A stretch of DNA of 64,000 nucleotides from Candidatus Omnitrophota bacterium (lineage in GTDB: Bacteria > Omnitrophota > Gorgyraeia > Gygaellales > Profunditerraquicolaceae). The position numbers were made by a program, and so were the translations under genes. The notes beneath the pieces were generated by a model that saw only the letters and a list, made by a program, of their open reading frames with translations, was not told where the DNA came from and did no database searches. Below, in pieces: positions 39,238 to 64,000 of this stretch. The stretch is taken from contig JAQTQG010000001.1 in the NCBI GenBank assembly GCA_028712375.1, positions 46,126 through 110,125 on the forward strand. Reading direction: 5' to 3'. The first letter of the stretch is position 1. The number at the start of each line of letters is the position of its first letter.

Positions 39238-39513
39238 ATGATTTGGTCAATTATCGGCATAGCTGCAGCTACTCTCACCATGTTTTCTTTTATTCCGCAA
39301 ATAGCCAGATCCTTAAGGACAAAATCTGTCAGGGATGTCAGCCCGGTTATGTTATTTCAGTTTTTCTGCGGAGTTATGCTTTGGTTGGTTTATGGAATTG
39401 CCCGGCGTGACCCGATAATAATAATGGCAAACGCAGTTACTTTAATAACTCTCTCAGTATTAATATTCCTATATTTTAAGTACGGTTGCCCGCAAAGCCA
39501 CCAGGGAGATTAA
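39238..39513 (+). CDS. SemiSWEET-like PQ-loop sugar transporter (3-TM unit)
   Basis: 91 aa; FIPQI PQ-loop motif in TM1; overall pattern resembles bacterial SemiSWEETs (…SFLPQ…R…K…D/S…W..YG…); immediately upstream of rmlA. Confidence 0.55.
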   Translation: MIWSIIGIAAATLTMFSFIPQIARSLRTKSVRDVSPVMLFQFFCGVMLWLVYGIARRDPIIIMANAVTLITLSVLIFLYFKYGCPQSHQGD

Positions 39514-39517
39514 TTAA

Positions 39518-40384
39518 ATGAAAGGGATTGTCCTAGCAGGAGGCAAGGCCACCAGGCTTTATCCAATCACTAAGGCTGTCTGCAAGCAGATGTTGCCGAT
39601 CTATGACAAGCCGTTGATTTATTATTCTCTCTCCGTATTGATGCTTGCCGGGATTAAAGATATCCTGATAATTTCCACTCCTAAAGATTTGCCGAGGTTT
39701 AAGGAGTTGTTGGGGGATGGCGCTAATCTGGGAGTAAAATTTTCTTACGCTTGTCAGCCTGAGCCGGAAGGCATTGCGCAGAGTTTTATTATCGCCGAGG
39801 ATTTTATAGGCAAAGATAGTGTTTGCCTGATTCTAGGCGATAATATATTTTATGGTTATAATTTAAGCGGGTTATTGCAGGATGCAGCAAAACTAAAAAG
39901 CGGGGCAGTTGTTTTTGGCTGTACCGTCAGGGATCCTGAGCGTTATGGCGTATTTGATTTTGATAAAAGCGGAAAAGTAATTTCAATTACTGAGAAGCCC
40001 GGGAAGGCAAAAACCAACTGGGTAGTTTCCGGGCTTTACTTTTACGATAATCAGGTTATTAAGATCGCCAAAAAAGTTAAACCATCATCCCGCGGGGAAC
40101 TGGAGATCACCAGCGTGAATAATGAATATATTAAGAAAAATAAGTTAAAAGTGCAATTCTTAGGGCGGGGCTATGCCTGGCTGGATACGGGAACCTATGA
40201 ATCATTAATTGAGGCCTCGGCATTTATTAAAACTATCGAAGAAAGGCAATGTTCAAAAATAGGTTGTATTGAAGAGGTTGCTTACCGGATGAAGTATATC
40301 AATAAGGCGCAGCTTGCCAAGCTGGCCGAAGAGATTAATACCGGTTATGGAGACTATTTAAAAGGGCTGGTTAATGATAGATAA
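39518..40384 (+). CDS. rfbA: glucose-1-phosphate thymidylyltransferase
   Basis: MKGIVLAGGKATRLYPIT...MLPIYDKP. Confidence 0.9.
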   Translation: MKGIVLAGGKATRLYPITKAVCKQMLPIYDKPLIYYSLSVLMLAGIKDILIISTPKDLPRFKELLGDGANLGVKFSYACQPEPEGIAQSFIIAEDFIGKDSVCLILGDNIFYGYNLSGLLQDAAKLKSGAVVFGCTVRDPERYGVFDFDKSGKVISITEKPGKAKTNWVVSGLYFYDNQVIKIAKKVKPSSRGELEITSVNNEYIKKNKLKVQFLGRGYAWLDTGTYESLIEASAFIKTIEERQCSKIGCIEEVAYRMKYINKAQLAKLAEEINTGYGDYLKGLVNDR

Positions 40385-41198
40385 GAACGTTTTAGTTTTA
40401 GGTAAAGGTTTTATCGGCCAAAGGCTGCAAGAGGGCTTGAATTGCGCAATAACTGAAGTATTCATAAAAACTTACCAGGATGCCGACAGATTAATTAAGC
40501 GCTATCGGCCTAAAGTAATTATTAATTGTATCAGCGTAACCGGTAGAAGAAATGTTGATGATTGTGAACAGGAAAAAGACGCGGTTCTTTCAGCTAACAG
40601 CTTTGTCCCGGTAATTTTAGCAGAAGTATGCCTGCGCAATAAAATCAAACTTGTGCATATAAGCAGCGGATGTATCTTTAATTATGATTATAAAAAAGAC
40701 AGGCCGGTTGATGAAAACAGCCGGAATTATTTTTTTAAATTGTTTTATAGCCGCAGTAAAATTTATGCCGACAGGGCTTTAGAGGTTTTAGCCCGCGATT
40801 ATGATATTCTCATTGCCCGGATCAGGATCCCGCTACTTAATGCCCGGCACCCTAAAAATATATTAGATAAGTTAATTAAGTACAAAAAAGTTATTGATTT
40901 GCCGAATTCGGTAACTTATATTCCCGATTTTGTCCGGGCAATCAAGCATTTGATAAAAATTAATGCATGCGGTATTTATAATATTGTGAATAAGGGGGCC
41001 TTGCGTTACCCGGCGCTTATGGATATGTACCATAGGTACAAACCGTCTTTTAAGTATACTGTGATTGATCCTGGCAGCCTGGGCTTAGTCCGGACGAACT
41101 TATTGATGTCTACGGCTAAATTAGAGAAGTCCGGATTTAAGGTTAGGAACATCAATACAGTTTTAGAGGAATGCCTAAAAGAATACCTAAAATCCTAA
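40374..41198 (+). CDS. RmlD-like NAD(P)-dependent dTDP-sugar 4-ketoreductase
   Basis: GKGFIG Rossmann motif, YSRSK (YxxxK); 274 aa RmlD_sub_bind-like; no rmlC in the window. Confidence 0.55.
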   Translation: MIDKNVLVLGKGFIGQRLQEGLNCAITEVFIKTYQDADRLIKRYRPKVIINCISVTGRRNVDDCEQEKDAVLSANSFVPVILAEVCLRNKIKLVHISSGCIFNYDYKKDRPVDENSRNYFFKLFYSRSKIYADRALEVLARDYDILIARIRIPLLNARHPKNILDKLIKYKKVIDLPNSVTYIPDFVRAIKHLIKINACGIYNIVNKGALRYPALMDMYHRYKPSFKYTVIDPGSLGLVRTNLLMSTAKLEKSGFKVRNINTVLEECLKEYLKS

Positions 41199-42178
41199 TT
41201 ACCGGCGGCGCCGGTTTCATGGGCAGCGCTTTTGTGAAGTTGTTAATTAAGGGGAGCTTTTCTGTTCAAGGGGAGCTTCCCTTTGTTGTTGTGGATAGAT
41301 TAACTTATGCCGGAGATCTTAAGCGTTTGGAAAGCGTGCGGAGAAAGTTTAAATTCTATAAGGTCGATATTTGCAATAAGAGACAAATCGATTCGGTATT
41401 TAAAAAAGAGAAGCCGGAGATTGTGGTGCATTTTGCCGCTGAATCGCATGTTGACCGCAGTATTAATGATGCCCAGGTGTTTATTAAGACTAATGTTAAA
41501 GGGACGCAAATTTTGATTGATGCCTGCCGTAGATATGGAGTAAAGAAATTTGTTTATATTTCTACGGATGAGGTTTATGGGAAGCTTGTCCATGGTAAGT
41601 TCAAGGAAAACGCTTGTTTTAAACCGAATAATCCTTATGCGGTTTCCAAGGCGACGGCAGATCTTTTGGTGCAAGCATATGTTAAGGCCTATAAGTTTCC
41701 GGCGATAATCATCAGGCCGTCGAATAATTATGGCCCTTGGCAATACCCGGAGAAATTTATTTCTTTGGGGATTTTGAGAGTATTGGAGGGCGGGAAAATC
41801 CCATTGTACGGGGACGGAAAAAATATACGCCAATGGCTTTATGTTGATGATTGCATGCGCGGTATTGCCGCCATTATGCGTAAAGGCAGGGTTGGAGAAG
41901 TTTATAATTTAGGGGGGATTGGTGAAAGCAGGAATATCGATACAGCTAAGCTATTACTAAAAGTTCTTGGTGTAAGCCCGGAGCAAATTGAGTTTGTGCA
42001 GGATCGTTTAGGCCATGACATAAGATACAGCCTTGATTCATCAAAAGTTTATCGGGAGCTTGGTTGGAAGGCGCAAGTCGGGTTTATACAGGGGCTTAAG
42101 CTTACGGTAGATTGGGCGTTGCAGCATCAAAGATGGCTTAAGAGCAAGCTGCCGGATATTAACAAGCTATATAAATAG
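41171..42178 (+). CDS. rfbB: dTDP-glucose 4,6-dehydratase
   Basis: ILITGGAGFMGS, catalytic YAVSKATAD, 335 aa. Confidence 0.9.
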   Translation: MPKRIPKILITGGAGFMGSAFVKLLIKGSFSVQGELPFVVVDRLTYAGDLKRLESVRRKFKFYKVDICNKRQIDSVFKKEKPEIVVHFAAESHVDRSINDAQVFIKTNVKGTQILIDACRRYGVKKFVYISTDEVYGKLVHGKFKENACFKPNNPYAVSKATADLLVQAYVKAYKFPAIIIRPSNNYGPWQYPEKFISLGILRVLEGGKIPLYGDGKNIRQWLYVDDCMRGIAAIMRKGRVGEVYNLGGIGESRNIDTAKLLLKVLGVSPEQIEFVQDRLGHDIRYSLDSSKVYRELGWKAQVGFIQGLKLTVDWALQHQRWLKSKLPDINKLYK

Positions 42179-42244: not shown

Positions 42245-42991
42245 ATGGTTAAACTAAAAGATACTGTGCGTAAACGTTTTATTGCTGTGGAGAGTAACTC
42301 TCTGGTTATTGAAACTATCCAGACTGAATCATTAAGCCATCGGGAGCGCTTGCGTATACTTAAACTTAAGGGCACCTGGCGGGCTAATGATTATAATGAG
42401 CTTTGTTTTGAAGCCGCTGCGCATAAAGGCCCACCTAAAACCTATACTTTTAAAGGAAACTGGAAGCTGAATAAGAACCAGCAAATTGAATACACATCTG
42501 ATGATGGGTTGGATACGTTAGTTTTTAATGGTTATTGGCAGATGCCTTCAGCTAAGCGTTTGGTTTATTTCTTGGAAGGAAGTTCGACCTCGCGCTTTGA
42601 ATTTAAGGCGCAGCTTGAATCGCCGACACTTTTTCCTAAAGAAGGCCAGATTCGTTACCGCCTGGGGATTGGTATTCGAAAAAGCCGCTTAACCGGGCCG
42701 GCTCCCATAGTTATTCTTTATGGTGAATGGAAGTTCGGGCGTAATTTGGAGCTGAATTTCCGGATGGATTATGGCCAGGACAGGGTTAAGGTTTTAGATT
42801 TCGGCGCAACAGTTACTTTTGGCCGCAATCAGGTAATTTTTGCGCTTAGAAATCAACTAAACCAGCCTTTGGGGATTACGATTACTATGACGCATAAATT
42901 TTTGAAAACTCTTGATGCGCAAGCTTTTATGAGATTAAGTTCCCGCCGGAATCAACAAGGCGTTGAGGGTGGAATTACTGTCCCCTTTTAA
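42245..42991 (+). CDS. hypothetical beta-rich protein, no signal peptide, C-terminal ...ITVPF
   Basis: 248-aa ORF with overlapping genes either side; no recognisable motifs. Confidence 0.3.
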   Translation: MVKLKDTVRKRFIAVESNSLVIETIQTESLSHRERLRILKLKGTWRANDYNELCFEAAAHKGPPKTYTFKGNWKLNKNQQIEYTSDDGLDTLVFNGYWQMPSAKRLVYFLEGSSTSRFEFKAQLESPTLFPKEGQIRYRLGIGIRKSRLTGPAPIVILYGEWKFGRNLELNFRMDYGQDRVKVLDFGATVTFGRNQVIFALRNQLNQPLGITITMTHKFLKTLDAQAFMRLSSRRNQQGVEGGITVPF

Positions 42992-43095: not shown

Positions 43096-43926
43096 ATGAT
43101 GGATAGTCATCTGCATGTTCAGGAAGATGGGGTTGATCTAAAGAAATATATCAGTATTTTGGTTAAAAGAAAAAAACTTATACTGGGCATTTTCCTTATT
43201 ACGATAGCTATTTCCGCCGTAGCCAGCTTTTTTATCCCTAAGGTTTATGAAATTACCTCTACAATCCAATTGGGGAACATAAACGGGCCTTTGATTAGTA
43301 AAGAAGAGTCAAAAGAGATAATTCTAAATCAAAACGCAATCTCGGATCTAATTAATAAATTAAATCTTAAGCTAGGAGTTGAGGGGCTTAAAAGAAGTAT
43401 TAATATCAGCAGTATAAATGGTACTAATTTATTAACGGTAAAAATAATCTATTCTGATCTGGCCGAAGCTTTTAAGATACATGATGTGCTTTTAGACCCG
43501 CTTATCGCGCAGGGTAAAAAAATCTATCAAGAGCGGATATTTCTTGTTAATGAAAGGCTGAAGGAATTAGATGCGGAAATAAGCAACTCCGAGCAAGATA
43601 TTAGCCGGACTCAGGCTTTAATTGCCGGGCTCCCTAATGCCAGTAATATTTCTCAATCCGATGTTTCCTTAAGAATAATCCTGCTGCAAAATACCCTGCC
43701 TAATTATGAAAATAATCTTACTTCTCTTAGAGACCAAAGAAATAACCTGAAATATTTATTAAGCAACGCCAGGGATTTTATGGTTTTTGATAAGCCCATT
43801 AAACCTGAAAATGCTATGGGGCCCGATAAAAAGCAGAAAATTATTACTGCCGGCGTGTTGAGCCTGGTATTTGGTATATTACTAGCTTTTTTCCTGGAAT
43901 ATTGGCAAAAAGATAAACAAAAATGA
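43096..43926 (+). CDS. Wzz/GumC-like polysaccharide chain-length determinant (PCP family)
   Basis: N-terminal TM helix after KKYISILVKRKKLILGIFLI, a long coiled-coil periplasmic region, a C-terminal TM helix; extended -10 tgcTATAAT upstream. Confidence 0.55.
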   Translation: MMDSHLHVQEDGVDLKKYISILVKRKKLILGIFLITIAISAVASFFIPKVYEITSTIQLGNINGPLISKEESKEIILNQNAISDLINKLNLKLGVEGLKRSINISSINGTNLLTVKIIYSDLAEAFKIHDVLLDPLIAQGKKIYQERIFLVNERLKELDAEISNSEQDISRTQALIAGLPNASNISQSDVSLRIILLQNTLPNYENNLTSLRDQRNNLKYLLSNARDFMVFDKPIKPENAMGPDKKQKIITAGVLSLVFGILLAFFLEYWQKDKQK

Positions 43927-44609
43927 AAAATTCCTGTTTAGCAATAATTCCGGCCCGCGGCGGTTCGAAGGGGCTGAAAAATAAGAATATAAAGAACTTA
44001 AATGGCAAGCCGTTAATTTATTACTCGATAAAGGAAGCGCAAAAAGCAAAGTGCATAAGCAAAATTATTGTTTCTACTGATTCCGAGAAGGTAAAACGAA
44101 TTGCTTTAAAATTCGGAGCGGAAGTGCCTTTCTTACGCCCGAAGAATCTATCTTCGGATAGAACTCCGATGTATCCGGTAAATAAACACGCCCTTGAATT
44201 ATTAGAAAAAAGGGGAGAAAGATTTAATATTGTGATAGTTTTGCAGCCGACATCCCCCCTAAGAAAAGCAGCGGATATCCAAAAGGCTGTCGCCAAGCTT
44301 AATAAAACAAAAGCGGATTCTGTGGTGAGCGTTTGTTTAGCTGAACACTCCCCATATTGGATGCGCGTAATAAAAAAGGGGAAAGTTTATCCTTTTGTTA
44401 AATCGCGCCAGTATTTACGCAGGCAGGATTTGCCAAAAGTGTACAGGCTGAACGGGGCTGTTTATGTAACCAGGGCAGAGGTATTGTTTAAACAGGGGGT
44501 GATTTTAGGAAAGAATACGCTGCCATTAGTTATGCCCCAGGATTCTTCTGTGGACATTGATACAGGATTGGATTTTAAGTTAGCGGAATTAATTTTGAAA
44601 AATAAATGA
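43923..44609 (+). CDS. CMP-nonulosonic acid synthetase (acylneuraminate cytidylyltransferase family, NeuA/PseF/LegF-like)
   Basis: AIIPARGGSKGLKNKNIKNLNGKPLIYYSI is the canonical CMP-NeuAc synthetase N-terminus. Confidence 0.85.
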   Translation: MKNSCLAIIPARGGSKGLKNKNIKNLNGKPLIYYSIKEAQKAKCISKIIVSTDSEKVKRIALKFGAEVPFLRPKNLSSDRTPMYPVNKHALELLEKRGERFNIVIVLQPTSPLRKAADIQKAVAKLNKTKADSVVSVCLAEHSPYWMRVIKKGKVYPFVKSRQYLRRQDLPKVYRLNGAVYVTRAEVLFKQGVILGKNTLPLVMPQDSSVDIDTGLDFKLAELILKNK

Positions 44610-45655
44610 ATAAAATACAGATAGGAACAAGGTGGGTAGGTAATGATCTGCCAGTATTTGTTATCGCTGAAGCCGGGGTAAACCATAACGGAGATATCAA
44701 ATTAGCAGAAAAACTTATCCGGGAAAGCAAGAAATGCGGGGCAGATTGTGTTAAATTCCAGTCTTTTAAAGCTGACCGGGTTGTTTCTTTAGATGCTCCG
44801 AAAGCGCAATATCAGCTGCAGACGACAGATCCAAGGGAAACTCAATATGAGATGTTGCGTAAATTAGAGTTAAAAGAAAATGATTATTCGAAGCTTATTT
44901 CAGTTTGCCGCGATGAAAATGTATTATTTCTTTCTACCCCTTATAATTCTGAGGATGTTGATTTTCTTTACGCTTTAGATGTTCCTGCTTATAAAATAGC
45001 ATCCGGCCAGTTAATTGAACTGCCTTTTTTAGAATATGTTGCTAAAAAAGGAAAACCGGTTATTATTTCAACTGGTATGGGGACATTGGATGAGGTGAAG
45101 ACTGCAGTAGAGACTATTCGCAATACGGGGAATAACCAAATAGTTATTTTGCAGTGCACTACGCATTATCCCTCTTGTATTGAAGATGCCAACCTCAGGG
45201 CTATGTCCACGATGAGAGAAGCATGCCGCGCTTTAGTTGGCTATTCGGATCATACATCCGGAGATTTATCTGCTATTGCAGCAGTTGCTTTGGGAGCTTG
45301 TATAATAGAAAAACATTTTACATTAGATAAGGATCTCGAAGGGCCTGATCAATCGTGTTCTGCTAATCCTGAAGAATTCATGCGATTGGTTAAAAATATT
45401 CGTTTTGTAGAGCAGTCCTTGGGGTCAAGCCAGAAATATCCTACAAAGCTAGAAAGTGTAAATGCCAGAATGATGCGAAGAAGTATCTTTGCTAAACAGG
45501 CTATTCCGGCGGGGGCTATTTTATCTTTGGAGAATATTTCGTTTAAGAGGCCGGCAATAGGGATTTTAGGGACTCAGAGTGGTTGCGTATTTGGAAAACG
45601 AGCTAAACATAACATATCAGAAAACACGCTTATAACTATGGATTTAATTGAATGA
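44606..45655 (+). CDS. nonulosonic acid synthase (NeuB/PseI/LegI family)
   Basis: VFVIAEAGVNHNGDIKLAEKLI...; 349 aa with a C-terminal SAF-like domain. Confidence 0.85.
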   Translation: MNKIQIGTRWVGNDLPVFVIAEAGVNHNGDIKLAEKLIRESKKCGADCVKFQSFKADRVVSLDAPKAQYQLQTTDPRETQYEMLRKLELKENDYSKLISVCRDENVLFLSTPYNSEDVDFLYALDVPAYKIASGQLIELPFLEYVAKKGKPVIISTGMGTLDEVKTAVETIRNTGNNQIVILQCTTHYPSCIEDANLRAMSTMREACRALVGYSDHTSGDLSAIAAVALGACIIEKHFTLDKDLEGPDQSCSANPEEFMRLVKNIRFVEQSLGSSQKYPTKLESVNARMMRRSIFAKQAIPAGAILSLENISFKRPAIGILGTQSGCVFGKRAKHNISENTLITMDLIE

Positions 45656-47129: not shown

Positions 47130-47148
47130 AATTAAACTTAGGGCTAAA

Positions 47149-51406: not shown

Positions 51407-51408
51407 TT

Positions 51409-53902: not shown

Positions 53903-53906
53903 TTAT

Positions 53907-58202: not shown

Positions 58203-58642
58203 AGTTGATTCCTGCCCATGCATATTCAAGGATGATTAAAGCGCTGCCTATATTGTGTGTTGATGTAGTGATTCGGAATAATAAAGGTGAATATTTATTG
58301 ATCCGGCGGGCAAATGAGCCTTTAAAAAATCGATGGTGGGTGGTTGGCGGCAGAGTATTAAAAGGCGAAACATTAGAAAAAGCAGCGATAAGAAAAGTTA
58401 AACAAGAAACCGGGCTTGTGGTTAAATCTGCCCAGCCGATCGGTTTTTATGAGGATGTTTTTGAAAAAAATCATTGTTGTAAGTCGCCCTTGCATTCTGT
58501 GAGCGTGGTTTTTTCAGTAAAAATCGGCCAGGATTGGAAAATAAGATTAGATAAGCAGAGTTGGAATTTTAAATTTTCATTAAGCTTGCCCAAAAGGCTC
58601 GTTATAAAACCGTTTATTAAAAAGTTAAATAGTCAACATTAA
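58199..58642 (+). CDS. NUDIX hydrolase, GDP-mannose mannosyl hydrolase (Gmm/NudD)-like
   Basis: Nudix-box-like GGRVLKGETLEKAAIRKVKQETGL; 147 aa; sits between GDP-sugar genes. Confidence 0.55.
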   Translation: MKLIPAHAYSRMIKALPILCVDVVIRNNKGEYLLIRRANEPLKNRWWVVGGRVLKGETLEKAAIRKVKQETGLVVKSAQPIGFYEDVFEKNHCCKSPLHSVSVVFSVKIGQDWKIRLDKQSWNFKFSLSLPKRLVIKPFIKKLNSQH

Positions 58643-58667: not shown

Positions 58668-59657
58668 ATGAAAAAAGCTTTAATTTTCGGGGTTACCGGA
58701 CAGGATGGAAGTTATCTGGCGGAAGTTTTATTGGATAAAGGGTATGAGGTGCATGGGATGGCCAGGCGTTCGGCAACAGGTAATACTAAGAATATTGAAC
58801 ACCTGCTGCAGGATGTAAAAATATTTAATAAGAAGTTTTTTCTTTGCCGGGGAGATTTAGCGGATGCGACATCTCTTTATCGTATAATTAATTCAGTCCG
58901 GCCGCAGGAAATATATAATGAGGCGGACCAGGACCATGTCAGCTGGAGTTTTGATATGGTGGGGTATTCGGCGGATATTACCGGCTCGGCTGTCGGCCGT
59001 ATCCTGGAAATTATCAAACAGATTGATCCTTCCATACGTTATTTTCAACCCTGTACTTCTAATATGTTCGGCAAGGCTGAGGTTACTCCTCAAACAGAGT
59101 TAACTCCTTTTAACCCGCAGAGTACTTATGCCTGCGCTAAGATTTTTGCTTATCATCTGACCCGTTATTATCGTGAAGCTTTTGGTATTTTTGCATCCAC
59201 GGGGATATTTTATAATCATGAATCCCCCCGCAGGACGCAGGAATATGTTACGCGTAAAATTACTAAAGCAGTAGCGCGGATTGCCTGCGGAAAACAGGAT
59301 AAATTGGTCCTGGGAGATTTAAGCGCGCGCGTTGACTGGGGTTATTCAAAAGAATATATGGAAACTGCCTGGAAGATTTTACAGTTGGATAAGCCCGATG
59401 ATTTCGTCATTGCTACCGGAGAACTGCATTCGGTTAAGGAGTTTGTGGATGAAGCTTTTTCCGTGGTTAATCTTGACCCGGAAAAATATGTTTCTACTGA
59501 TAAAAGTTTGCTGCGCCCGACTAAAACCAGCGCGCTCATCGGTGATATTGCCAAAGCAAAGAAGGTTTTTGGGTTTGCGCCGAAAATCAAGTTTAAAGAA
59601 TTAGTAAAATTAATGGTAGAAGCGGATCTTCAGAAAGAAAAAAGCAGCCAAAAATAG
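58668..59657 (+). CDS. Gmd-family SDR paralog with an altered active site (catalytic Glu lost); candidate GDP-4-keto-6-deoxyhexose reductase (Rmd-like)
   Basis: ALIFGVTGQDGSYLA; has CTSNMFG where Gmd has STSELYG; retains YACAKIF (YxxxK). Confidence 0.65.
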   Translation: MKKALIFGVTGQDGSYLAEVLLDKGYEVHGMARRSATGNTKNIEHLLQDVKIFNKKFFLCRGDLADATSLYRIINSVRPQEIYNEADQDHVSWSFDMVGYSADITGSAVGRILEIIKQIDPSIRYFQPCTSNMFGKAEVTPQTELTPFNPQSTYACAKIFAYHLTRYYREAFGIFASTGIFYNHESPRRTQEYVTRKITKAVARIACGKQDKLVLGDLSARVDWGYSKEYMETAWKILQLDKPDDFVIATGELHSVKEFVDEAFSVVNLDPEKYVSTDKSLLRPTKTSALIGDIAKAKKVFGFAPKIKFKELVKLMVEADLQKEKSSQK

Positions 59658-59658: not shown

Positions 59659-61227
59659 ATGGATAAGCAGCAATTTGAATTTTCAGTCAAAATTTTTAAC
59701 CAACTGGGAGAATCCCGGCTGAAGTCAGGCAGGACTTTGCGGGAAGAGCTATGCTTGGGGCAGGAAATATCCTTTTGGGATATTTTAGCTCCTTACTTAG
59801 TGCTTTACCGTTTTCCTCTGTTATTTCTTAAAAATAATCAAAACTTTACGGTAAAAGAATGGTGGAAGTATTATCTGCGGCCTTTTAGGGGGCGGGTTGC
59901 GCAATTTATGGATTCGGCGATTTTTTATTTCTGCAGGAATGTTAAAGATTGTTTACGTTGGCCGGCAGGCAGGCAACCAGTATTGTTCCTGGCTTTTACT
60001 CAAACATTTTATCGTGATGTTTTGCATCCGGTAACGGAATTCTTTATTAAGAAAGACAGCAGACAGGTTGTGGTGCTTGAGCATAACAGAAGTCTTCCGG
60101 ACAATTTTAGCCCGGATAGCAAAATAGAATTTCAATCACTTTGCGGGCATTGGGGAATTGAAGCCAATAATTTAGGTAAAAATTTGTTAGAGCGGCTCAA
60201 GGCTCTGCAAAAATCCCTATTGAATAAAAATCAGCTAATGGTATTAACGCAAAGTGTTTCCGGGGATTTTAGCAAGTTTGCTTTACGCCAAGAGTTTTAT
60301 TGGATTTTTTGGCGTGAACTAAGGCGTTTAATTCCTATGTACGCTGTGGCTAAGCATATTTTGGAAGAACATAAGCCTGCTTTGATTGTTTCTGCGGATG
60401 ATGCTGACCAGCGTCATAGAATTTTTTCTTTGCTTGCCCGGAAAAAAGGAATTCCGGCTTTACTTGTACAGCAGGGCCTTTGTCATAAAGATTATCCGGA
60501 GTGGTTATTTTTTTCTCATACTATGGTCGCTGCTATGGGGCAGGCTTCGGCAGATGATATGATTTCGCAAGGTGTTCCTCCTGAAAAAATTATGGTTACC
60601 GGCAATCCTGGATTCGACCAGTTTAGCTTTATTGAGCCTGAGGCTGTTGCGTTTTTGCGTAAACGGCTAGGGGTGTTGGATAATGAAAAGATGGTATTGT
60701 TTGCCTGCCAGCCATATTATGTTGGAGTTTTTAATACCCCCCAGATACGCAGCCAAATGATTGAGGCGATTGCTCAGGCAGCGGGTTCTTTAAAGAACAT
60801 TAAACTTGTGGTTAAGCCGCATCCGGCTGATAATGTGCGTCAGCTTAAAAAGTTATTGGATAAATCGCCGCAGGCAGTTATGGTAGACCGTAAGATGGAT
60901 ATTTCGCCTTTGATTAAAGCCTGTGACGTTCTAGTCACTTTTTTTTCAACTGCAGCTTTACAGGCGCTTTATGCCGGTAAGCCGGTTATCAATGTAGAAT
61001 TCCCGGATAGTTCCGGCAATAATATTTATTCTGAAAGCGGAGCAACCCGGGTAGCTCGTTCGACTGGTGAAATTATTAAGTGTCTCCAGGATTTAATTCA
61101 ATACAGGGTTGAGGATCCTGGATACGAAACTAACCGTCAGCTTTTTTTACGTAAAATGCTGCATTTTCCCGATGGGTTAGCTAGCGAGCGTGTTTTAAAG
61201 GTTGTTGCAGAAATGTTATCATCTTAA
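59659..61227 (+). CDS. hypothetical polysaccharide-biosynthesis protein (possible GT-B-like; VKPHP motif reminiscent of glycerophosphotransferase/capsule-synthesis enzymes)
   Basis: 522-aa ORF, no TM segments, alpha/beta composition; weak assignment. Confidence 0.3.
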   Translation: MDKQQFEFSVKIFNQLGESRLKSGRTLREELCLGQEISFWDILAPYLVLYRFPLLFLKNNQNFTVKEWWKYYLRPFRGRVAQFMDSAIFYFCRNVKDCLRWPAGRQPVLFLAFTQTFYRDVLHPVTEFFIKKDSRQVVVLEHNRSLPDNFSPDSKIEFQSLCGHWGIEANNLGKNLLERLKALQKSLLNKNQLMVLTQSVSGDFSKFALRQEFYWIFWRELRRLIPMYAVAKHILEEHKPALIVSADDADQRHRIFSLLARKKGIPALLVQQGLCHKDYPEWLFFSHTMVAAMGQASADDMISQGVPPEKIMVTGNPGFDQFSFIEPEAVAFLRKRLGVLDNEKMVLFACQPYYVGVFNTPQIRSQMIEAIAQAAGSLKNIKLVVKPHPADNVRQLKKLLDKSPQAVMVDRKMDISPLIKACDVLVTFFSTAALQALYAGKPVINVEFPDSSGNNIYSESGATRVARSTGEIIKCLQDLIQYRVEDPGYETNRQLFLRKMLHFPDGLASERVLKVVAEMLSS

Positions 61228-61231: not shown

Positions 61232-62677
61232 ATGAAATTAAGCTTAGCAGGAAAAAATTTTATTTTGCCCGGTAAAATGCAATTATTTCTAAGTTGTATA
61301 GCAGCAGGGGCTGCTGCTTATCTTGCTTTTTTTTGCAATCTGCAGCTCTTGCAGGTAATTACGATAGCTTCAGGCTTATTTTTGGCAGGTTTAGCTTTTA
61401 AATCCGATAAGACCTGGATCCCTATCTTGTTTATTTTATTGCCCATGAGAGGTTTTCAGTTGGGCAGTGTTTGGGGGGCAGGGGCAATCAGGGCAGGGGA
61501 TATCTTTATTGCGTATATATTCTTATTGTGGTTATTTAAATATGCCCATAAAGATAAGCCGGGTAATTTTATCAGGTCTAAGCTGGATTTATTTATAGTA
61601 TTATTCCTTGTTTTTTATATGCTTTCCTTATTTTGGTCCAGCAAGATCGACTTAGGTTTAATTCGAGTTATGAAATTTATCCGTAATTTTTGTTTTTTCC
61701 TATTAATCCGGGAGTTGTTTATTAAAGATTTCCGTGATAACTATAAAAAATTAGTCATTTGTTCTATGGTGATGGGGTTAGCGGTGGGGTTAGTGTACCT
61801 TTTTTCGATCTTTAAAGATGTAACCCCGTTACAGTTTAATTCACTTTATGAGAAAGAAGTATTGACTTCTATTGACCTGGGATTTTGGAGAAAACGCATT
61901 ACCGGAGGAGGGATTTTTCTTAACGGAGCCAGTAACTTTTTGATGTTATCAGGAGTATTTATTTTTGGCTCGCTTGTCTTAGCGCAGAATAAATTTAAGC
62001 GTTGGCTAAAAATAGTTCTAATTATATTTATGTTTTCGGTAGCATCTATAGGAACATTGTCCCGTTCGGCAATGGTGAGTGTGGCTTTAATACTGGTTAT
62101 TTTGTTAGTCGGTAATTATAAAATTAATTTGAAGCAAAATAAAAGATTTTTTATTAGTATTGTTTTGTTTTTTGCGATTGTGATTTTTTCTTTAGGTGTA
62201 CATAAGCTTGTTTTGAAGAGATTTGTTAATCCGTTTCAGGACGGTTCTTGGGCTCAAAGGGTAGATTTAGCTAAGGTGGCGCTTAAGGGTTTCTGGCATA
62301 GCCCGGTTATCGGAATAGGCCCGGGGAGTAATTTTACCTGGCAGTCACTTTATGCTGAGCAGGTTGCTTCACGGGTTCCGGATAATTTGTATTTGAATAT
62401 TCTAAGTGAAGTGGGGGCGGTGGGTTTTCTTTTGTTCTTAGTGATAATATTTTTATGGTTGGAATGTCTTATAAAATGCATGCAAGATAGGGACGCGGAT
62501 ATTTATCTGCGCAATATTTGTCTTGCGATTTTTGCTTTTGGTTTAAGTTATCTTTTGGCAGCATTAATCAGCCAGGAATTCGAATCTTTTGAAGCCTGGA
62601 TTATGCTAGGAATTACATCTGCCATATGTAGTATCCGGGCAAGAAGTAAAGAACTGTCTGTGCAAGGGGCTAGCTAA
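61232..62677 (+). CDS. Wzy_C-family membrane protein (O-antigen polymerase, ligase or O-oligosaccharyltransferase family)
   Basis: 10+ TM helices; large periplasmic loop containing RVPDNLYLNILSEVGAVGF, resembling the O-antigen ligase motif with Asp in place of His; an alternative start at 61202 is possible. Confidence 0.5.
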   Translation: MKLSLAGKNFILPGKMQLFLSCIAAGAAAYLAFFCNLQLLQVITIASGLFLAGLAFKSDKTWIPILFILLPMRGFQLGSVWGAGAIRAGDIFIAYIFLLWLFKYAHKDKPGNFIRSKLDLFIVLFLVFYMLSLFWSSKIDLGLIRVMKFIRNFCFFLLIRELFIKDFRDNYKKLVICSMVMGLAVGLVYLFSIFKDVTPLQFNSLYEKEVLTSIDLGFWRKRITGGGIFLNGASNFLMLSGVFIFGSLVLAQNKFKRWLKIVLIIFMFSVASIGTLSRSAMVSVALILVILLVGNYKINLKQNKRFFISIVLFFAIVIFSLGVHKLVLKRFVNPFQDGSWAQRVDLAKVALKGFWHSPVIGIGPGSNFTWQSLYAEQVASRVPDNLYLNILSEVGAVGFLLFLVIIFLWLECLIKCMQDRDADIYLRNICLAIFAFGLSYLLAALISQEFESFEAWIMLGITSAICSIRARSKELSVQGAS

Positions 62678-62692
62678 CTTTAGTTGTTATCT

Positions 62693-64000
62693 ATGAAAAG
62701 TAAACATATCTATATCCTGCTTTTGATCATCCTTGGTTTGGGGGCTTTATTAAGATTCTACCAGTTAGGTGCAAAGAGCCTGTGGACGGATGAATTGGCT
62801 ACTATGGTAAATACTGCTAACATTGTTGATTTTAAGACCTTTCTTGAACATACCGTTAATGATGACCTGCCGAAATTTTATTCTTTGCTTTTAAAATTTT
62901 GGATAACTTTGGGTAATTCAGAGTTTTTTATGCGCGCACTTTCTGTTATATTCGGGATTTTATCAATATGGGTAGTTTATGTTTTAAGCCGGTTATTTTT
63001 CGATGCGAAAGCGTCTCTTTCTGCGGCCTTCTTGACTGCCATTTCACCGTTTCTTTTACTTTATGACCGTGAAATCCGTGTTTATTCCTTGTTCACTCTG
63101 CTTTCTTTGTTGGCTACCTATTTATTTGTTAAATCTATAAGGGATAATAAAAAATATCTCTGGCTACTTTTTACAGCCGTCAGCATATTGAATGTTTATA
63201 CCCACTATTATGCTTTTTTAACTTTGGGAGTACAGTGGTTGTTTCTGATCATCCGTAAGCGCAGTTATCGGCAGTTGGTTAAACCTTGGCTTATTGCAAA
63301 CTGTACCATATTTTTATTTTTTATGGTGAGGATGATGGCATTTATTAAGGATATCGCGTATTTTGCCCCTTGGGCAATACCTAGGGAGAGATTCCCGTTT
63401 ATTTTTACCAAAGAAATTGTTGAAATTTTTTATATCTTTTTTTCATTCACTGTTGGCCAAACGATAATGCCCTGGAATTTTTATGCTGTGCCTATCTTAT
63501 TGGTTACTATAGCTTGTTTTGTTTTAGGTATAAGAAAAAATAGTTCCTTAGCCCGGGAATCGCTTTATCTGTTGTTGTTAATATTTGTTCCGGTACTGAT
63601 TGGGGTGGTTTTTAGGATTTCTTTACCGAGATATTTTATGTTTATTGCTCCGCTTGTTTATATTTTTATTGCTAAAGGAATTTGGGTGCTTCCTAAAAAA
63701 GTCATGGTCATAGCCGGATTAGTGATTATCCTCGGGTGGGGTTATGGCTTAAAAAATTATTATACCGATAAAGAATTTCATTTTTTAGGCAGCGTAGATC
63801 CCTGGAGAGAAGTAGGGGGTTATTTAAAGGAGAATGTGCGGGAGAAAGATGCCTTGTATTGTTTGGGGTTAGGCGTAGTTCCTTTGCGCCATTATTATAA
63901 TAGTTCGATACCGGGTTTTGAGGGTCCGGGGTTAATTAAGAAATTAGAGAGTTTGGATAAAGCCGGTACTAAAAGGATTTGGTTAATTTTTACATATCAG
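62693..64000 (+). CDS. GT-C glycosyltransferase (GT39/GT83, ArnT/PMT-like), 3' end beyond the window
   Basis: ATG at 62693 with the ORF open to the window end; N-terminus MKSKHIYILLLIILGLGALLRFYQLGAKSLWTDE is typical of the ArnT/PMT family; multiple TM helices. Confidence 0.6.
   Translation, partial: MKSKHIYILLLIILGLGALLRFYQLGAKSLWTDELATMVNTANIVDFKTFLEHTVNDDLPKFYSLLLKFWITLGNSEFFMRALSVIFGILSIWVVYVLSRLFFDAKASLSAAFLTAISPFLLLYDREIRVYSLFTLLSLLATYLFVKSIRDNKKYLWLLFTAVSILNVYTHYYAFLTLGVQWLFLIIRKRSYRQLVKPWLIANCTIFLFFMVRMMAFIKDIAYFAPWAIPRERFPFIFTKEIVEIFYIFFSFTVGQTIMPWNFYAVPILLVTIACFVLGIRKNSSLARESLYLLLLIFVPVLIGVVFRISLPRYFMFIAPLVYIFIAKGIWVLPKKVMVIAGLVIILGWGYGLKNYYTDKEFHFLGSVDPWREVGGYLKENVREKDALYCLGLGVVPLRHYYNSSIPGFEGPGLIKKLESLDKAGTKRIWLIFTYQ

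What the first reader, a model, noticed from the sequence alone, without database searches (positions are those of the whole stretch)
39238..64000. ~25 kb composite glycan locus mixing dTDP-, CMP-nonulosonate- and GDP-sugar chemistry, next to a pilus cluster with Thr-rich pilins
Read from the sequence:
- a SemiSWEET-like transporter, rmlA, an rmlD-like gene and rmlB, with no rmlC
- a Wzz-like protein
- neuA-like and neuB-like genes, a NeuD-type acetyltransferase, a TIM-barrel isomerase and a CBS-fused DegT aminotransferase
- a Wzx-like flippase, a radical SAM enzyme and a Gfo/Idh/MocA oxidoreductase
- gmd, a cupin, a second DegT aminotransferase, a SAM methyltransferase, a GT4, a C-methyltransferase, a Gmm-like NUDIX hydrolase and a Gmd paralog lacking the catalytic Glu
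- a hypothetical protein, a Wzy_C-family membrane protein and a GT-C (GT39) glycosyltransferase

The locus contains only one soluble GT. By established knowledge, Wzy_C-family enzymes include the pilin and protein O-oligosaccharyltransferases (PglL/PilO type), and GT-C enzymes such as TfpW glycosylate pilins. The major pilin at 21936-22352 has a Thr/Ser/Ala-rich C-terminal third.

Inference: the locus may build a nonulosonic-acid and methylated amino-deoxyhexose glycan that is transferred to pilin or another surface protein, or it may be an unusual O-antigen.
Basis: partly seen in the sequence, partly recalled or inferred. Interest (0 to 1): 0.75.

Follow-up and report, generated by a model that had tools for sequence, protein, structure and literature searches.

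The report
O-antigen-like polysaccharide gene cluster, Omnitrophota
This is a large surface-polysaccharide (O-antigen-type) gene cluster in an uncultivated Omnitrophota bacterium, built around a sugar-making cassette shared with other anaerobes; nothing ties it to the pilus genes 17 kb upstream, so it is mostly ordinary apart from two unusual enzyme variants.

Summary
The gene list holds up. HMM searches confirm SemiSWEET, RmlA, RmlB, a weak RmlD-like reductase, Wzz, a Leg-type nonulosonate set (NeuB, NeuD, a PseF/NeuA-like gene, CBS-LegC), Wzx, an rSAM-SPASM enzyme, Gfo/Idh/MocA, Gmd, a perosamine-synthase-like DegT, a methyltransferase, a GT4, a sugar 3-C-methyltransferase, a Gmm-like NUDIX, a Gmd paralog with Glu replaced by Asn, a Wzy_C protein and a PMT_2 GT-C.

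Two premises fail:
- The "hypothetical" gene at 59659-61227 is a second soluble GT-B transferase, probably a nonulosonate transferase.
- The pilins lie 17 kb away, behind about 12 housekeeping genes.

The block cupin-(DegT)-MT-GT4-CMT-(NUDIX)-Gmd2-GTB-Wzy_C-GT-C recurs, wholly or in part as contig ends allow, in 12 other stretches from about nine independent metagenome or MAG sources (Omnitrophota, Syntrophaceae and others). None has a pilin-like ORF. The Wzy_C protein keeps the two Arg of WaaL and PglL but has Asp at the His those enzymes need. It has no PglL_A domain and co-travels with the sugar genes.

With Wzx, Wzz and an LPS heptose gene in the window, the best reading is a Wzx/Wzy-dependent O-antigen-like polymer, with the Wzy_C protein as polymerase (about 0.55). 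A ligase role and a protein O-glycosylation role remain possible. The locus runs off the window end, and no initiating transferase is visible.

The parts
39238..39513 (+). SemiSWEET / PQ-loop 3-TM protein; first gene after TyrRS. Its role in the locus is unknown.
   Evidence: NF037968 87.6 bits (cutoff 80), PF04193, PF03083; 3 TM segments.
39518..42178 (+). dTDP-sugar genes: RmlA (39518-40384), divergent RmlD-like SDR (40374-41198), RmlB (41171-42178). No RmlC.
   Evidence: TIGR01207 447 bits and TIGR01181 393 bits, both above cutoff. The RmlD-like gene scores only 49 bits against a cutoff of 224 but keeps GxGxxG and YxxxK.
42245..42991 (+). Soluble 248-aa protein of unknown family.
   Evidence: No Pfam or NCBIfam hit, no TM segment, no homolog in related loci.
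43096..43926 (+). Short polysaccharide co-polymerase (Wzz/PCP) with N- and C-terminal TM helices.
   Evidence: PF02706 3e-10; weak TIGR01006/TIGR01005 hits; TM at 29-47 and 249-267.
43923..48597 (+). Nonulosonate (legionaminic-type) genes: CMP-transferase, NeuB/LegI-type synthase, NeuD/LegH-type N-acetyltransferase, TIM-barrel enzyme, CBS-fused LegC-family aminotransferase.
   Evidence: TIGR03569 415 bits (cutoff 400); TIGR03570 211 bits (cutoff 161); TIGR04181 400 bits (cutoff 420); PseF 193 bits (cutoff 206); PF01261.
48591..50093 (+). Wzx-type flippase, about 13 TM segments, in the lowest-GC part of the locus.
   Evidence: PF13440 and PF01943; TM count; GC 0.33-0.34.
50237..52413 (+). Radical SAM/SPASM enzyme and Gfo/Idh/MocA oxidoreductase (sugar-modifying; substrates unknown).
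   Evidence: PF04055 + PF13186; PF01408 + PF22725.
52450..53505 (+). Canonical GDP-mannose 4,6-dehydratase (Gmd1), motif T-S-E.
   Evidence: TIGR01472 413 bits (cutoff 415); PF16363 5e-121; STSE at residue 128.
53498..55849 (+). Start of the conserved cassette: small cupin (53498-53902), GDP-perosamine-synthase-like aminotransferase (53853-55025), SAM methyltransferase (55025-55849).
   Evidence: Cupin: weak WbuC hit, no PDB sequence hit. DegT: best PDB hits are perosamine synthetases 3DR7/3BN1/3DR4, E about 1e-95, against 2e-56 for QdtB. Conserved in related loci.
55859..56980 (+). GT4 glycosyltransferase (soluble GT number 1).
   Evidence: PF00534, PF13692, PF13439; 57-84% identical in related loci.
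56994..58202 (+). NDP-hexose 3-C-methyltransferase (TylC3/TcaB9 type).
   Evidence: PF08421 + PF08484. Full-length PDB matches: 4RV9 (5e-45), TcaB9, KijD1. 73-89% identical in related loci.
58199..58642 (+). NUDIX hydrolase, GDP-mannose mannosyl hydrolase-like.
   Evidence: PF00293; NF011963 62 bits, below its cutoff of 146.
58668..59657 (+). Gmd-derived paralog (Gmd2). Catalytic Glu is Asn132; Tyr/Lys are kept. Proposed 4-keto reductase or oxidoreductase acting with the C-methyltransferase.
   Evidence: TIGR01472 393 bits (below cutoff 415). Alignment to 1N7G shows SSE versus TSN. 118 of the 120 nearest homologs have C[TS]SN. More than 2597 homologs at E<1e-100.
59659..61227 (+). Soluble GT-B transferase (GT number 2), probable CMP-nonulosonate transferase.
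61232..62677 (+). Wzy_C-domain membrane protein, about 12 TM segments (a TTG at 61202 is an alternative start). Proposed O-unit polymerase. Asp384 (nt 62381-62383) sits at the canonical His position.
   Evidence: PF04932 8.7e-17, the only family hit. AF2 model's best PDB match is WaaL 7TPG, E 2e-5, followed by FtsW. R278 and R343 align to EcWaaL R215 and R288. D384 versus His in 121 of 143 relatives.
62693..64000 (+). GT-C (PMT_2, ArnT/PMT-like) glycosyltransferase, truncated by the window end. Proposed periplasmic glycosylation from a polyprenyl-phosphate sugar.
   Evidence: PF13231 3e-13; weak match to Rv1635c-type mannosyltransferase; WTDE motif in the first loop; at least 8 TM segments. 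Conserved downstream of Wzy_C in related loci.
21936..27802 (+). Type IV pilus cluster: pilins 21936, 22611 and 23057; PilM, N, O, P-like and Q. Listed only because the finding invokes it; not part of the glycan locus.
   Evidence: PF07963 hits; prepilin motif G-F-T-L-[VI]-E.

Best explanation
The region is the first ~25 kb of a Wzx/Wzy-dependent surface-heteropolysaccharide locus of an LPS-bearing Omnitrophota bacterium. It is most likely an O-antigen and is cut by the window end.

**Proposed mechanism**
1. Cytoplasmic enzymes make at least three classes of activated sugar (gene families shown; products inferred):
   - a dTDP-6-deoxyhexose, from RmlA, RmlB and an RmlD-like reductase, without a 3,5-epimerase;
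   - a CMP-5,7-diamino nonulosonate of legionaminic type, from NeuB/LegI, a LegC-like aminotransferase, a NeuD/LegH acetyltransferase and a CMP-transferase;
   - GDP-6-deoxyhexose derivatives starting from Gmd: a perosamine-type 4-amino sugar via DegT2, and/or a 3-C-methyl sugar via the C-methyltransferase. The Glu-to-Asn Gmd paralog is proposed to act as the 4-keto reductase. The cupin and the methyltransferase would add epimerisation and methylation.
2. On an undecaprenyl-PP primer laid down by an initiating transferase that is not in the window, GT4 and the GT-B enzyme extend the repeat unit (inferred). The GT-B enzyme probably adds the nonulosonate from its CMP donor.
3. Wzx flips the unit. 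The Wzy_C protein polymerises it and Wzz sets the chain length (inferred).
4. The GT-C enzyme adds a side-branch sugar in the periplasm from a polyprenyl-phosphate donor (inferred).
5. A ligase encoded elsewhere attaches the chain to lipid A-core (inferred).
For: - Wzx, Wzz and a Wzy_C-fold membrane protein are co-directional in one cluster.
- The window encodes ADP-L-glycero-D-manno-heptose 6-epimerase above its trusted cutoff (381 bits, cutoff 275), so the organism makes an LPS core.
- The Wzy_C gene is inherited together with specific sugar genes. Parts or all of cupin-(DegT)-MT-GT4-CMT-(NUDIX)-Gmd2-GTB-Wzy_C-GT-C appear in 12 other stretches from different lineages. This is expected of a repeat-unit-specific polymerase, not of a promiscuous ligase or OTase.
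- Asp replaces the His that ligases and O-OTases require. Both Arg are kept, and Wzy polymerases depend on Arg in their periplasmic loops (PMC3643930, PMC9829042, PMC12004945).
- In a sister Omnitrophica locus (L016), the Wzy_C embedded among the GT genes also lacks the His (AS). A second Wzy_C next to a Glycos_transf_4 initiating transferase has the canonical HN. This is a polymerase-plus-ligase layout.
- No other candidate polymerase lies within 10 kb downstream of the Wzy_C gene in the Pfam-annotated relatives L002 and L003.
- Low-GC wzx and wzy genes are typical of O-antigen loci.
- A hypervariable O-antigen/capsule cassette has been reported in Omnitrophota (bioRxiv 10.64898/2026.05.20.726742).
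Against: - No initiating phosphoglycosyl transferase, export gene or ligase is in the window.
- Pfam Wzy_C cannot separate Wzy from WaaL or O-OTases (PMC3643930, PMC4594306).
- Half of the protein's own clade keeps the His, so Asp384 is not a clean discriminator.
- The Wzy_C clade matched neither E. coli WbbH nor WaaL convincingly, so it does not cluster with a proven polymerase.
- The Leg pathway is incomplete in the window: no LegB or LegG equivalent is identified.
- The GT-B donor is inferred, not shown. Its nearest structures are 2-epimerases and TagF/TarL.
- No experimental data exist for this organism.
Confidence: 0.55

Rival explanations
1. The Wzy_C protein is the O-antigen ligase (WaaL type). 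It would transfer the finished glycan, polymerised by an enzyme encoded beyond the window or attached as a single unit, onto lipid A-core.
For: - The only PDB structure resembling the AF2 model is WaaL 7TPG (E 2e-5, TM 0.49/0.57).
- The Arg residues equivalent to EcWaaL R215 and R288 are invariant.
- NCBI names the protein "O-antigen ligase family protein".
- Seven of the 13 aligned clade members keep the His.
- The organism has an LPS core gene.
Against: - His338-equivalent is Asp384 in this protein and in 7 relatives. This His is required in WaaL (cited in PMC3643930 and PMC9829042).
- Wzz is present, yet no other polymerase candidate is in the window or within 10 kb downstream in L002 and L003.
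- Tight co-inheritance with specific sugar genes is unusual for a ligase.
- In L016 the His-bearing Wzy_C is a different gene, next to the initiating transferase.
Confidence: 0.2
2. One reading: the locus makes a lipid-linked oligosaccharide that is transferred to pilin or other surface proteins. The Wzy_C protein would act as a PglL/TfpO-type O-oligosaccharyltransferase, and/or the GT-C enzyme as a TfpW/PMT-type protein glycosyltransferase.
For: - All known O-OTases carry a Wzy_C domain, and GT-C/PMT_2 enzymes include protein O-mannosyltransferases (established knowledge; PMC9829042).
- PilA1 has a Thr/Ala-rich C-terminal third (35% Ser+Thr).
- No ligase or initiating transferase is visible to prove an LPS destination.
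Against: - The pilins are 17 kb upstream, behind about 12 housekeeping genes.
- No prepilin-like ORF occurs in any of the 12 related stretches.
- No PglL_A or Wzy_C_2 hit appears in any of the 13 clade members at E<=1.
- The His essential in PglL and TfpM is Asp here.
- pglL genes are typically outside polysaccharide loci and next to their targets (PMC3643930). TfpO, TfpM and TfpW genes abut their pilin gene.
- A Wzz gene is unnecessary for single-unit transfer.
- The Thr-rich pilin segment shares the motifs GY.YDC and TGG.I.E with the non-Thr-rich third pilin, so it looks like structured strand rather than a low-complexity sequon.
Confidence: 0.12
3. The locus makes a capsule or exopolysaccharide, or another lipid-anchored glycan not joined to lipid A. 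It would still use Wzx and Wzy chemistry, with the short Wzz acting as a CpsC-like co-polymerase.
For: - The Wzz protein is short (276 aa). Its weak NCBIfam hits are to CpsC/EPS chain-length families rather than to enterobacterial Wzz.
- No ligase is visible.
- TagF/KpsS/polyST-like signatures in the GT-B enzyme are common in capsule systems.
Against: - No Wza-type exporter, BY-kinase or phosphatase gene is in the window or in the related loci inspected.
- The sister locus L016 carries a WaaL-like gene.
Confidence: 0.1

Closest known systems
Wzx/Wzy-dependent O-antigen gene clusters that combine GDP-perosamine genes with gmm (e.g. E. coli O157 gmd-fcl-gmm(wbdQ)-per; from my own knowledge) and the E. 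coli K-12 rfb cluster (rfbBDAC-wzx-glf-wbbH)
   Same: One co-directional block holds nucleotide-sugar genes (rmlA, rmlB, gmd, a perosamine-synthase-like DegT, a Gmm-like NUDIX), Wzx, a polymerase-like membrane protein and GTs. The membrane-protein genes have low GC.
   Different: - It adds a nonulosonate branch, a sugar 3-C-methyltransferase, a Glu-to-Asn Gmd paralog, a GT-C enzyme and radical SAM enzymes.
- It has no rmlC.
- No initiating transferase is seen.
- The polymerase candidate is a strong Wzy_C-domain protein, unrelated in sequence to WbbH.
Proposed GDP-virenose pathway of Coxiella burnetii LPS (Gmd CBU0689, TylCIII-like C-methyltransferase CBU0691, GMER CBU0688; PMC3539893)
   Same: [quoted passage not shown]
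   Different: - The reductase candidate here is a Gmd-derived paralog (T-S-N), not a GMER/Fcl enzyme.
- A cupin, a perosamine-type aminotransferase and a further methyltransferase accompany it.
- The Coxiella pathway itself is an in silico proposal.
Tannerella forsythia Pse/Leg-derivative transferases Tanf_01245 / TFUB4_00887 / BFO_1060 (PMC5420450)
   Same: Both are soluble, TagB/GT-B-like enzymes encoded beside CMP-nonulosonate genes. They share a C-terminal domain carrying an HP motif. The window protein matches the C-terminal 160 positions of the NCBIfam BFO_1060 model (E 8e-23).
   Different: - The score of 81 bits is far below the family cutoff of 200.
- The window protein is 522 aa, against about 445 aa, and has a different N-terminal half.
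- The T. forsythia enzymes serve protein O-glycosylation.
- Donor specificity here is untested.
Legionaminic acid pathway (LegB, C, H, G, I, F of Campylobacter jejuni and Legionella; from my own knowledge)
   Same: A NeuB/LegI-type synthase scores above the trusted cutoff. A LegC-family aminotransferase, a NeuD/LegH-type acetyltransferase and a CMP-transferase are present. A PtmE-like CBS-nucleotidyltransferase sits upstream of NeuA in the related locus L013.
   Different: - No LegB dehydratase or LegG hydrolysing 2-epimerase is identified in the window.
- The CBS pair is fused to the aminotransferase.
- Extra TIM-barrel, rSAM-SPASM and Gfo/Idh/MocA genes are present.
WaaL O-antigen ligase (E. 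coli WaaL; C. metallidurans WaaL, 7TPG) and the PglL/TfpO/TfpM O-oligosaccharyltransferases
   Same: It shares the Wzy_C domain and a WaaL/SEDS-like fold. The two conserved Arg are kept: R278 aligns to R215 and R343 to R288.
   Different: - The essential His is Asp384.
- There is no PglL_A domain.
- The gene is embedded in and co-inherited with sugar-synthesis genes, not with core genes or a target-protein gene.
TfpW pilin arabinosyltransferase of P. aeruginosa group IV pilins, and ArnT/PMT GT-C enzymes (from my own knowledge)
   Same: It is a multi-TM GT-C enzyme with an acidic D-E motif in the first periplasmic loop. It presumably uses a polyprenyl-phosphate sugar donor.
   Different: - It is not adjacent to any pilin gene.
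- It is conserved next to Wzy_C in loci without pilins.
- In relatives it is followed by GT2, DegT or SDR genes, as in three-component periplasmic glycan-modification systems.

Membership tests
Wzx/Wzy-dependent O-antigen / polysaccharide locus | Wzx flippase | tested here: met
   48591-50093: PF13440 and PF01943, about 13 TM segments.
Wzx/Wzy-dependent O-antigen / polysaccharide locus | Wzy polymerase (polytopic SEDS/WaaL-fold protein with essential Arg in periplasmic loops) | tested here: inconclusive
   61232-62677 has the right fold and invariant Arg. No sequence link to a proven Wzy, and Pfam Wzy_C does not discriminate.
Wzx/Wzy-dependent O-antigen / polysaccharide locus | Chain-length regulator (PCP/Wzz) | tested here: met
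   43096-43926: PF02706 3e-10, with two terminal TM helices.
Wzx/Wzy-dependent O-antigen / polysaccharide locus | Initiating phosphoglycosyl transferase (WecA/WbaP/PglC type) | tested here: not met
   None among the ORFs scanned across the window (the + strand ORFs of roughly 100 aa or more, except PilM-Q, 19728-21683 and 27843-30981, which were read by eye only). The locus is cut at 64000. The sister locus L016 has Glycos_transf_4.
Wzx/Wzy-dependent O-antigen / polysaccharide locus | Organism makes lipid A-core | tested here: met
   ADP-heptose 6-epimerase at 11939-12919, TIGR02197 381 bits (cutoff 275). Lipid A genes themselves were not seen in the window.
WaaL O-antigen ligase | Conserved Arg pair (EcWaaL R215, R288) | tested here: met
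   hhalign puts R278 on R215 and R343 on R288. Both are invariant in A1.
WaaL O-antigen ligase | Essential His (EcWaaL H338) in the H-N...E-x-G motif | tested here: not met
   Asp384 (GAT, nt 62381-62383). His occupies this position in 121 of 143 relatives; Asp in the 8 sequences of the window subclade.
PglL-type O-oligosaccharyltransferase | PglL_A (PF15864) region flanking Wzy_C | tested here: not met
   Only PF04932 is found in all 13 clade members, even at E<=1. Definition from PMC3643930.
PglL-type O-oligosaccharyltransferase | Essential His (NmPglL H349; TfpM H286) | tested here: not met
   Asp384; PMC3643930, PMC9829042.
PglL/TfpO/TfpM-type O-oligosaccharyltransferase | Gene adjacent to its target (pilin) gene and outside polysaccharide loci | tested here: not met
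   The Wzy_C gene is about 39 kb from PilA1 and lies inside the sugar cluster. No pilin-like ORF in the 12 related stretches.
PglL/TfpO/TfpM-type O-oligosaccharyltransferase | Transfers glycan to Ser/Thr of a protein | not testable with these tools
   Needs glycoproteomics or heterologous glycosylation assays.
TfpW-type pilin GT-C glycosyltransferase | Encoded immediately downstream of the pilin gene it modifies | tested here: not met
   The genes after PilA1 are two more pilins and pilMNOPQ. The GT-C gene is at 62693.
GDP-mannose 4,6-dehydratase (Gmd) | Thr-x-Glu / Tyr-xxx-Lys catalytic set | tested here: met
   Gmd1 (52450-53505) has STSE and YAAAK; TIGR01472 413 bits against a cutoff of 415.
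GDP-mannose 4,6-dehydratase (Gmd) | Catalytic Glu in the paralog at 58668-59657 | tested here: not met
   TSN: Asn132 aligns with the Glu of the SSE motif in 1N7G. Tyr and Lys are kept. 393 bits, below cutoff. The same change is in 118 of the 120 nearest homologs.
NDP-hexose 3-C-methyltransferase (TylC3/TcaB9) | Zn-binding N-domain + SAM domain + C-terminal domain, full-length homology to solved enzymes | tested here: met
   PF08421, PF13489 and PF08484. 4RV9 5e-45 over residues 7-400; TcaB9 about 3e-35. The nucleotide (GDP or dTDP) of its substrate was not tested.
Legionaminic acid biosynthesis | LegI/NeuB synthase, LegC aminotransferase, LegH acetyltransferase, LegF CMP-transferase | tested here: met
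   TIGR03569 is above cutoff. TIGR04181 scores 400 against 420 (just below). TIGR03570 is above cutoff. The CMP-transferase is PseF-like, 193 against 206.
Legionaminic acid biosynthesis | LegB 4,6-dehydratase and LegG hydrolysing 2-epimerase | tested here: not met
   No protein reaches TIGR04180; the best is RmlB at 140 bits against a cutoff of 475. The only Epimerase_2-like protein is the 522-aa GT-B, which by my reading of the sequence (not a computed alignment) has Gln where the epimerase Glu should be. These genes may lie beyond 64000.
BFO_1060-family nonulosonate transferase | Match to NF046086 above cutoff | tested here: not met
   81 bits against a cutoff of 200. Only the C-terminal 160 model positions match.
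BFO_1060-family nonulosonate transferase | HP motif and acidic motif in a GT-B/TagB-like soluble protein encoded with CMP-NulO genes | tested here: met
   H388-P389 and D247/D250 are invariant in 23 homologs. No TM segment. NeuA and NeuB lie 15 kb upstream in the same operon-like block; motifs as described in PMC5420450.

The most novel reading that the evidence does not exclude
The conserved core cupin-(DegT)-MT-GT4-3-C-methyltransferase-(NUDIX)-Gmd(Glu->Asn) is a widespread, uncharacterised pathway for a C-methyl-branched GDP-6-deoxy (amino)hexose. The product would be kansosamine- or evalose-like (my own recollection of such sugars). In this reading a dehydratase-dead Gmd paralog has been recruited as the 4-keto oxidoreductase. 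The paralog has thousands of members, all currently annotated as GDP-mannose 4,6-dehydratase. The GT-B/Wzy_C(Asp)/GT-C trio that travels with the core in Omnitrophota, Syntrophaceae and related anaerobes would be a dedicated assembly module for one shared glycan. Its acceptor (LPS or protein) is still open.
Probability: 0.3. Interest if true: 0.55.

Novelty: new member of a known kind. Interest (0 to 1): 0.33.

Why it matters
- Omnitrophota are uncultivated, often tiny and possibly host-dependent bacteria. Their surface glycans are unknown and probably shape attachment, predation and phage susceptibility.
- The analysis gives a concrete, testable inventory of their surface sugars: a nonulosonate, a perosamine-type sugar and a C-methyl sugar.
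- It shows that a 10-gene cassette is shared across distant anaerobic lineages, which points to lateral transfer of a whole glycan trait.
- It flags a very large Gmd-like subfamily lacking the catalytic Glu, which is probably mis-annotated in every database.
- It does not open a new category of system. Mixed dTDP/GDP/CMP O-antigen clusters are common.

Tried and rejected
**Getting sequence beyond 64000.** All attempts failed, so the downstream end is inferred only from relatives.
- The exact-protein look-up found only a 3-kb Logan contig or nothing.
- The genome scan did not contain this MAG.
- The first metagenome scan, with the GT-C fragment, found nothing.

**Linking the Wzy_C protein to solved or proven enzymes by sequence.**
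- The PDB profile search gave no hit.
- hhalign to E. coli WbbH was noise.
- hhalign to WaaL gave only an 83-column segment at probability 2.6%. I used it solely to map the two Arg, which fall exactly on R215 and R288.

**Fold search of Wzy_C.** It returns WaaL and FtsW. It cannot separate polymerase, ligase and OTase.

**Is the cupin an FdtA/QdtA-type 3,4-ketoisomerase or RmlC?** No Pfam or PDB support. Only a weak WbuC hit. Left as "cupin, probable epimerase/isomerase".

**Is the DegT-MT pair a dTDP-mycaminose-like branch?** Rejected in favour of GDP, because the DegT is far closer to GDP-perosamine synthase than to QdtB.

- By my reading of the sequence, the epimerase catalytic Glu position appears to be Gln.
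- Its best sequence families are TagF-like and BFO_1060.
- It is 150 aa longer.
- It always sits next to Wzy_C.

It is not excluded.

**Other checks that led nowhere.**
- Promoter and terminator scans were no better than shuffles.
- No tRNA gene was found. Repeats and mobile elements at the locus border were not searched.

Full report
**Origin and layout**

The Wzy_C, GT-B and Gmd-paralog proteins are 100% identical to NCBI proteins of a Candidatus Omnitrophica MAG, on a 181,996-bp contig. Every ORF with a family assignment in the 64 kb lies on the + strand, and GC skew is positive throughout.

The first 39 kb are housekeeping and transport genes:
- a DEAD helicase, TolC/HlyD/ABC genes, an MFS transporter, NikR-CbiM, hldD, glycine cleavage, lipoate genes and ThyX;
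- a type IV pilus block at 21.9-27.8 kb;
- then RNase E/G, L21, Obg, ProB, ProA, NadD-like, Rpe, PGM/PMM, PlsC-like, S1 and TyrRS.

The glycan locus starts directly after TyrRS at 39238 and runs off the window end. Its GC drops to 0.33-0.37 over the wzx/rSAM genes and over the Wzy_C/GT-C genes.

**Checking the observation**

- RmlA, RmlB, NeuB, the NeuD-type acetyltransferase and the SemiSWEET score above trusted cutoffs.
- Gmd (413 bits, cutoff 415) and the CBS-LegC aminotransferase (400 bits, cutoff 420) are borderline.
- The RmlD-like protein is only a distant SDR (49 bits, cutoff 224) but keeps GxGxxG and YxxxK.
- The "Gmd paralog lacking the catalytic Glu" is correct. Against Arabidopsis GMD (1N7G) the S-S-E motif reads T-S-N, with Asn132, while Tyr-xxx-Lys is retained.
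- The pilin description is correct: PilA1 has 16 Ser/Thr in its last 46 residues.

Two statements do not hold.

*First, the "hypothetical protein" at 59659-61227 is a second soluble glycosyltransferase-like enzyme.*
- It hits Glyphos_transf, Epimerase_2, polysialyltransferase and Capsule_synth in Pfam.
- It hits the BFO_1060-family GT, TIGR04396 and LIC12162 models in NCBIfam.
- It models with pLDDT 90 as a GT-B fold.
- It has an invariant His-Pro motif and an acidic DDxD cluster across 23 homologs.
- BFO_1060 is the strain 92A2 homolog of the Tannerella forsythia enzymes shown genetically to add pseudaminic or legionaminic acid derivatives. That paper points to the same HP and acidic motifs and a TagB-like domain (PMC5420450).
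- The families it resembles use CMP- or CDP-linked donors (my own knowledge), and the locus makes a CMP-nonulosonate. A nonulosonate transferase is therefore the most economical assignment, but it is an inference.

*Second, the pilus cluster is not adjacent.* 11.4 kb and about 12 unrelated genes intervene.

**Comparative evidence**

Homologs of the Wzy_C protein are rare:
- 15 in the word-indexed search;
- 21 cluster representatives below 1e-30 in the exhaustive HMMER search, within a superfamily of about 14,600.

Fetching their contigs and mapping the window proteins onto them shows a conserved cassette: cupin-(DegT)-MT-GT4-3-C-methyltransferase-(NUDIX)-Gmd2-GTB-Wzy_C-GT-C.
- It appears, wholly or in part as contig ends allow, in 12 stretches (L002-L014 without the 3-kb L001). 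They come from about nine independent sources, because L003/L004 carry the same protein and L005/L008 are one MAG. Among them are MAGs labelled Planctomycetales, Deltaproteobacteria and Syntrophaceae.
- The C-methyltransferase (73-89% identity) and Gmd2 (74-92%) are far more conserved than Wzy_C (36-69%).
- Where upstream sequence is available, Wzx precedes the cupin (L007, L013, L014).
- L013 also has NeuA and a PtmE-like CBS-nucleotidyltransferase, so nonulosonate genes accompany the cassette there too.
- Downstream, relatives continue with GT2, DegT, SDR, acetyltransferase and further GT-C-like genes. The window therefore shows only part of the locus.
- A regular-expression scan for prepilin leaders found the two window pilins and none in any related locus.

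**What the Wzy_C protein is**

It has about 12 TM segments, and Wzy_C is its only Pfam domain. None of the 13 clade members touches PglL_A or Wzy_C_2, even at E<=1. The AF2 model (pLDDT 73) matches only WaaL (7TPG) and FtsW in the PDB. That fold is shared by ligases, polymerases and SEDS proteins, so it does not discriminate.

Three residues are required in E. coli WaaL and conserved in PglL: R215, R288 and H338 (PMC3643930). The same His is essential in TfpM (PMC9829042).
- hhalign places window R278 and R343 exactly on R215 and R288.
- At the H-N-x-Y-L-Q-x-L-x-E-x-G-x-x-G motif, 121 of 143 relatives have His. The window protein and 7 close relatives have Asp (P-D-N-L-Y-L-N-I-L-S-E-V-G; Asp384, GAT).
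- Because independent homologs share the Asp, it is not a sequencing error.

A sister Omnitrophica locus, reached through a Gmd2 homolog (L016), carries two Wzy_C genes.
- One sits among the GT genes and lacks the His (A-S).
- The other sits next to a Glycos_transf_4 initiating transferase and has the canonical H-N.

That is the layout expected for a polymerase plus a ligase. A Wzz gene is also present, and there is no other polymerase candidate in the window or within 10 kb downstream in annotated relatives. The gene is co-inherited with particular sugar genes. I therefore favour polymerase over ligase, and ligase over protein OTase. The caveat is that half of the clade keeps the His, so the Asp is suggestive only.

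**Sugar chemistry (inferred from families)**
- *dTDP branch:* RmlA and RmlB plus a divergent reductase without RmlC, suggesting a D-configured 6-deoxyhexose.
- *CMP branch:* NeuB/LegI-type rather than PseI-type (415 versus 301 bits), with a LegC-family aminotransferase and a NeuD acetyltransferase. No LegB or LegG is visible. The roles of the TIM-barrel, rSAM-SPASM and Gfo/Idh/MocA enzymes are unknown.
- *GDP branch:* Gmd1 is canonical. DegT2 is closest by far to GDP-perosamine synthase (about 1e-95, against 2e-56 for the next distinct family). The C-methyltransferase is a full-length TylC3/TcaB9 homolog.
- *Gmd2:* it lacks the dehydration base but keeps the redox residues. I propose it reduces the 4-keto group after C-methylation, by analogy with the proposed Coxiella virenose route (PMC3539893).
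- In L010 and L013 the aminotransferase is missing while the rest of the cassette stays. The amino group is therefore optional, and the C-methyl/Gmd2 pair is the constant core.
- Gmd2-type proteins are very numerous: more than 2597 at E<1e-100. 118 of the 120 nearest have C[TS]SN, and 117 of 120 have IYNEADQDH in place of the Gmd IYNLAAQS motif. In Acidobacteria and Omnitrophica contigs they again sit beside the C-methyltransferase.

**The GT-C enzyme**

It is PMT_2/ArnT-like, with a W-T-D-E first-loop motif. In relatives it is followed by GT2 or DegT/SDR genes. This fits periplasmic decoration from a polyprenyl-phosphate sugar. Nothing links it to pilins.

**Verdict**

The pilin-glycosylation inference rests on a wrong premise and on a loose neighbourhood, and has no positive support. 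The locus is best read as an O-antigen-type Wzx/Wzy/Wzz polysaccharide cluster in an LPS-bearing organism (hldD). This agrees with a recent report of hypervariable O-antigen/capsule cassettes in Omnitrophota. It is a new member of a known kind.

The more interesting residue is threefold:
- the cross-phylum cassette;
- the Glu-to-Asn Gmd subfamily paired with a sugar C-methyltransferase;
- a Wzy_C clade in which the "essential" His alternates with Asp.

Noticed in passing
window 58668-59657 (and L002-L016): The Gmd paralog belongs to a very large, highly conserved subfamily: more than 2597 proteins at E<1e-100, 75-92% identical across phyla. It has T-S-N instead of T-S-E and IYNEADQDH instead of IYNLAAQS. 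It sits next to a sugar 3-C-methyltransferase in every locus inspected that covers the upstream side. All sources name it GDP-mannose 4,6-dehydratase, which is probably wrong.
   Followed up: partly
L016 12096-13415 and 18288-19457: Another Omnitrophica contig with the same sugar core has two Wzy_C genes. One, among the GT genes, lacks the canonical His (A-S). The other has it (H-N) and lies directly after a Glycos_transf_4 (WecA-like) gene. This looks like a polymerase-plus-ligase pair.
   Followed up: partly
window 9471-21343: The Ni/Co uptake genes appear split. NikR (9471), CbiM (10920) and a PDGLE/CbiN-like gene (11602) lie about 8 kb from the CbiQ-like (19728) and CbiO-like ATPase (20495) genes; the last two were identified only by reading their sequences. 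Between them are hldD, the glycine-cleavage genes, lipoate ligase/synthase-like genes and thyX.
   Followed up: no
window 11939-12919: ADP-L-glycero-D-manno-heptose 6-epimerase (HldD) scores well above its trusted cutoff, so this Omnitrophota genome makes a heptose-containing LPS core.
   Followed up: partly
window 42245-42991: A 248-aa soluble protein lies between rmlB and wzz. It has no Pfam or NCBIfam hit and no counterpart in the related loci.
   Followed up: partly
window 23057-23470: The third pilin-like gene lacks the G-F-T-L-x-E prepilin motif and the Glu5. It shares the motifs GY.YDC and TGG.I.E with PilA1, which suggests the Thr-rich C-terminal part of PilA1 is a structured strand region.
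   Followed up: no
window 39238-39513: A SemiSWEET (above the NCBIfam cutoff) is the first gene of the polysaccharide block, immediately upstream of rmlA. It also weakly matches the LAB_N lipid A biosynthesis N-terminal domain. Its role in a glycan locus is unexplained.
   Followed up: no
window 1-64000: All assigned genes over 64 kb are on one strand, and GC skew is positive in every 2-kb window.
   Followed up: no
L002 6629-8143, L010 1555-3246, L014 644-2041, L016 1-413 and 4297-5892: B12-binding radical SAM enzymes recur inside or beside the cassette in relatives. The window instead has an rSAM-SPASM enzyme after wzx. They may be further C-methylases or other sugar modifiers.
   Followed up: no
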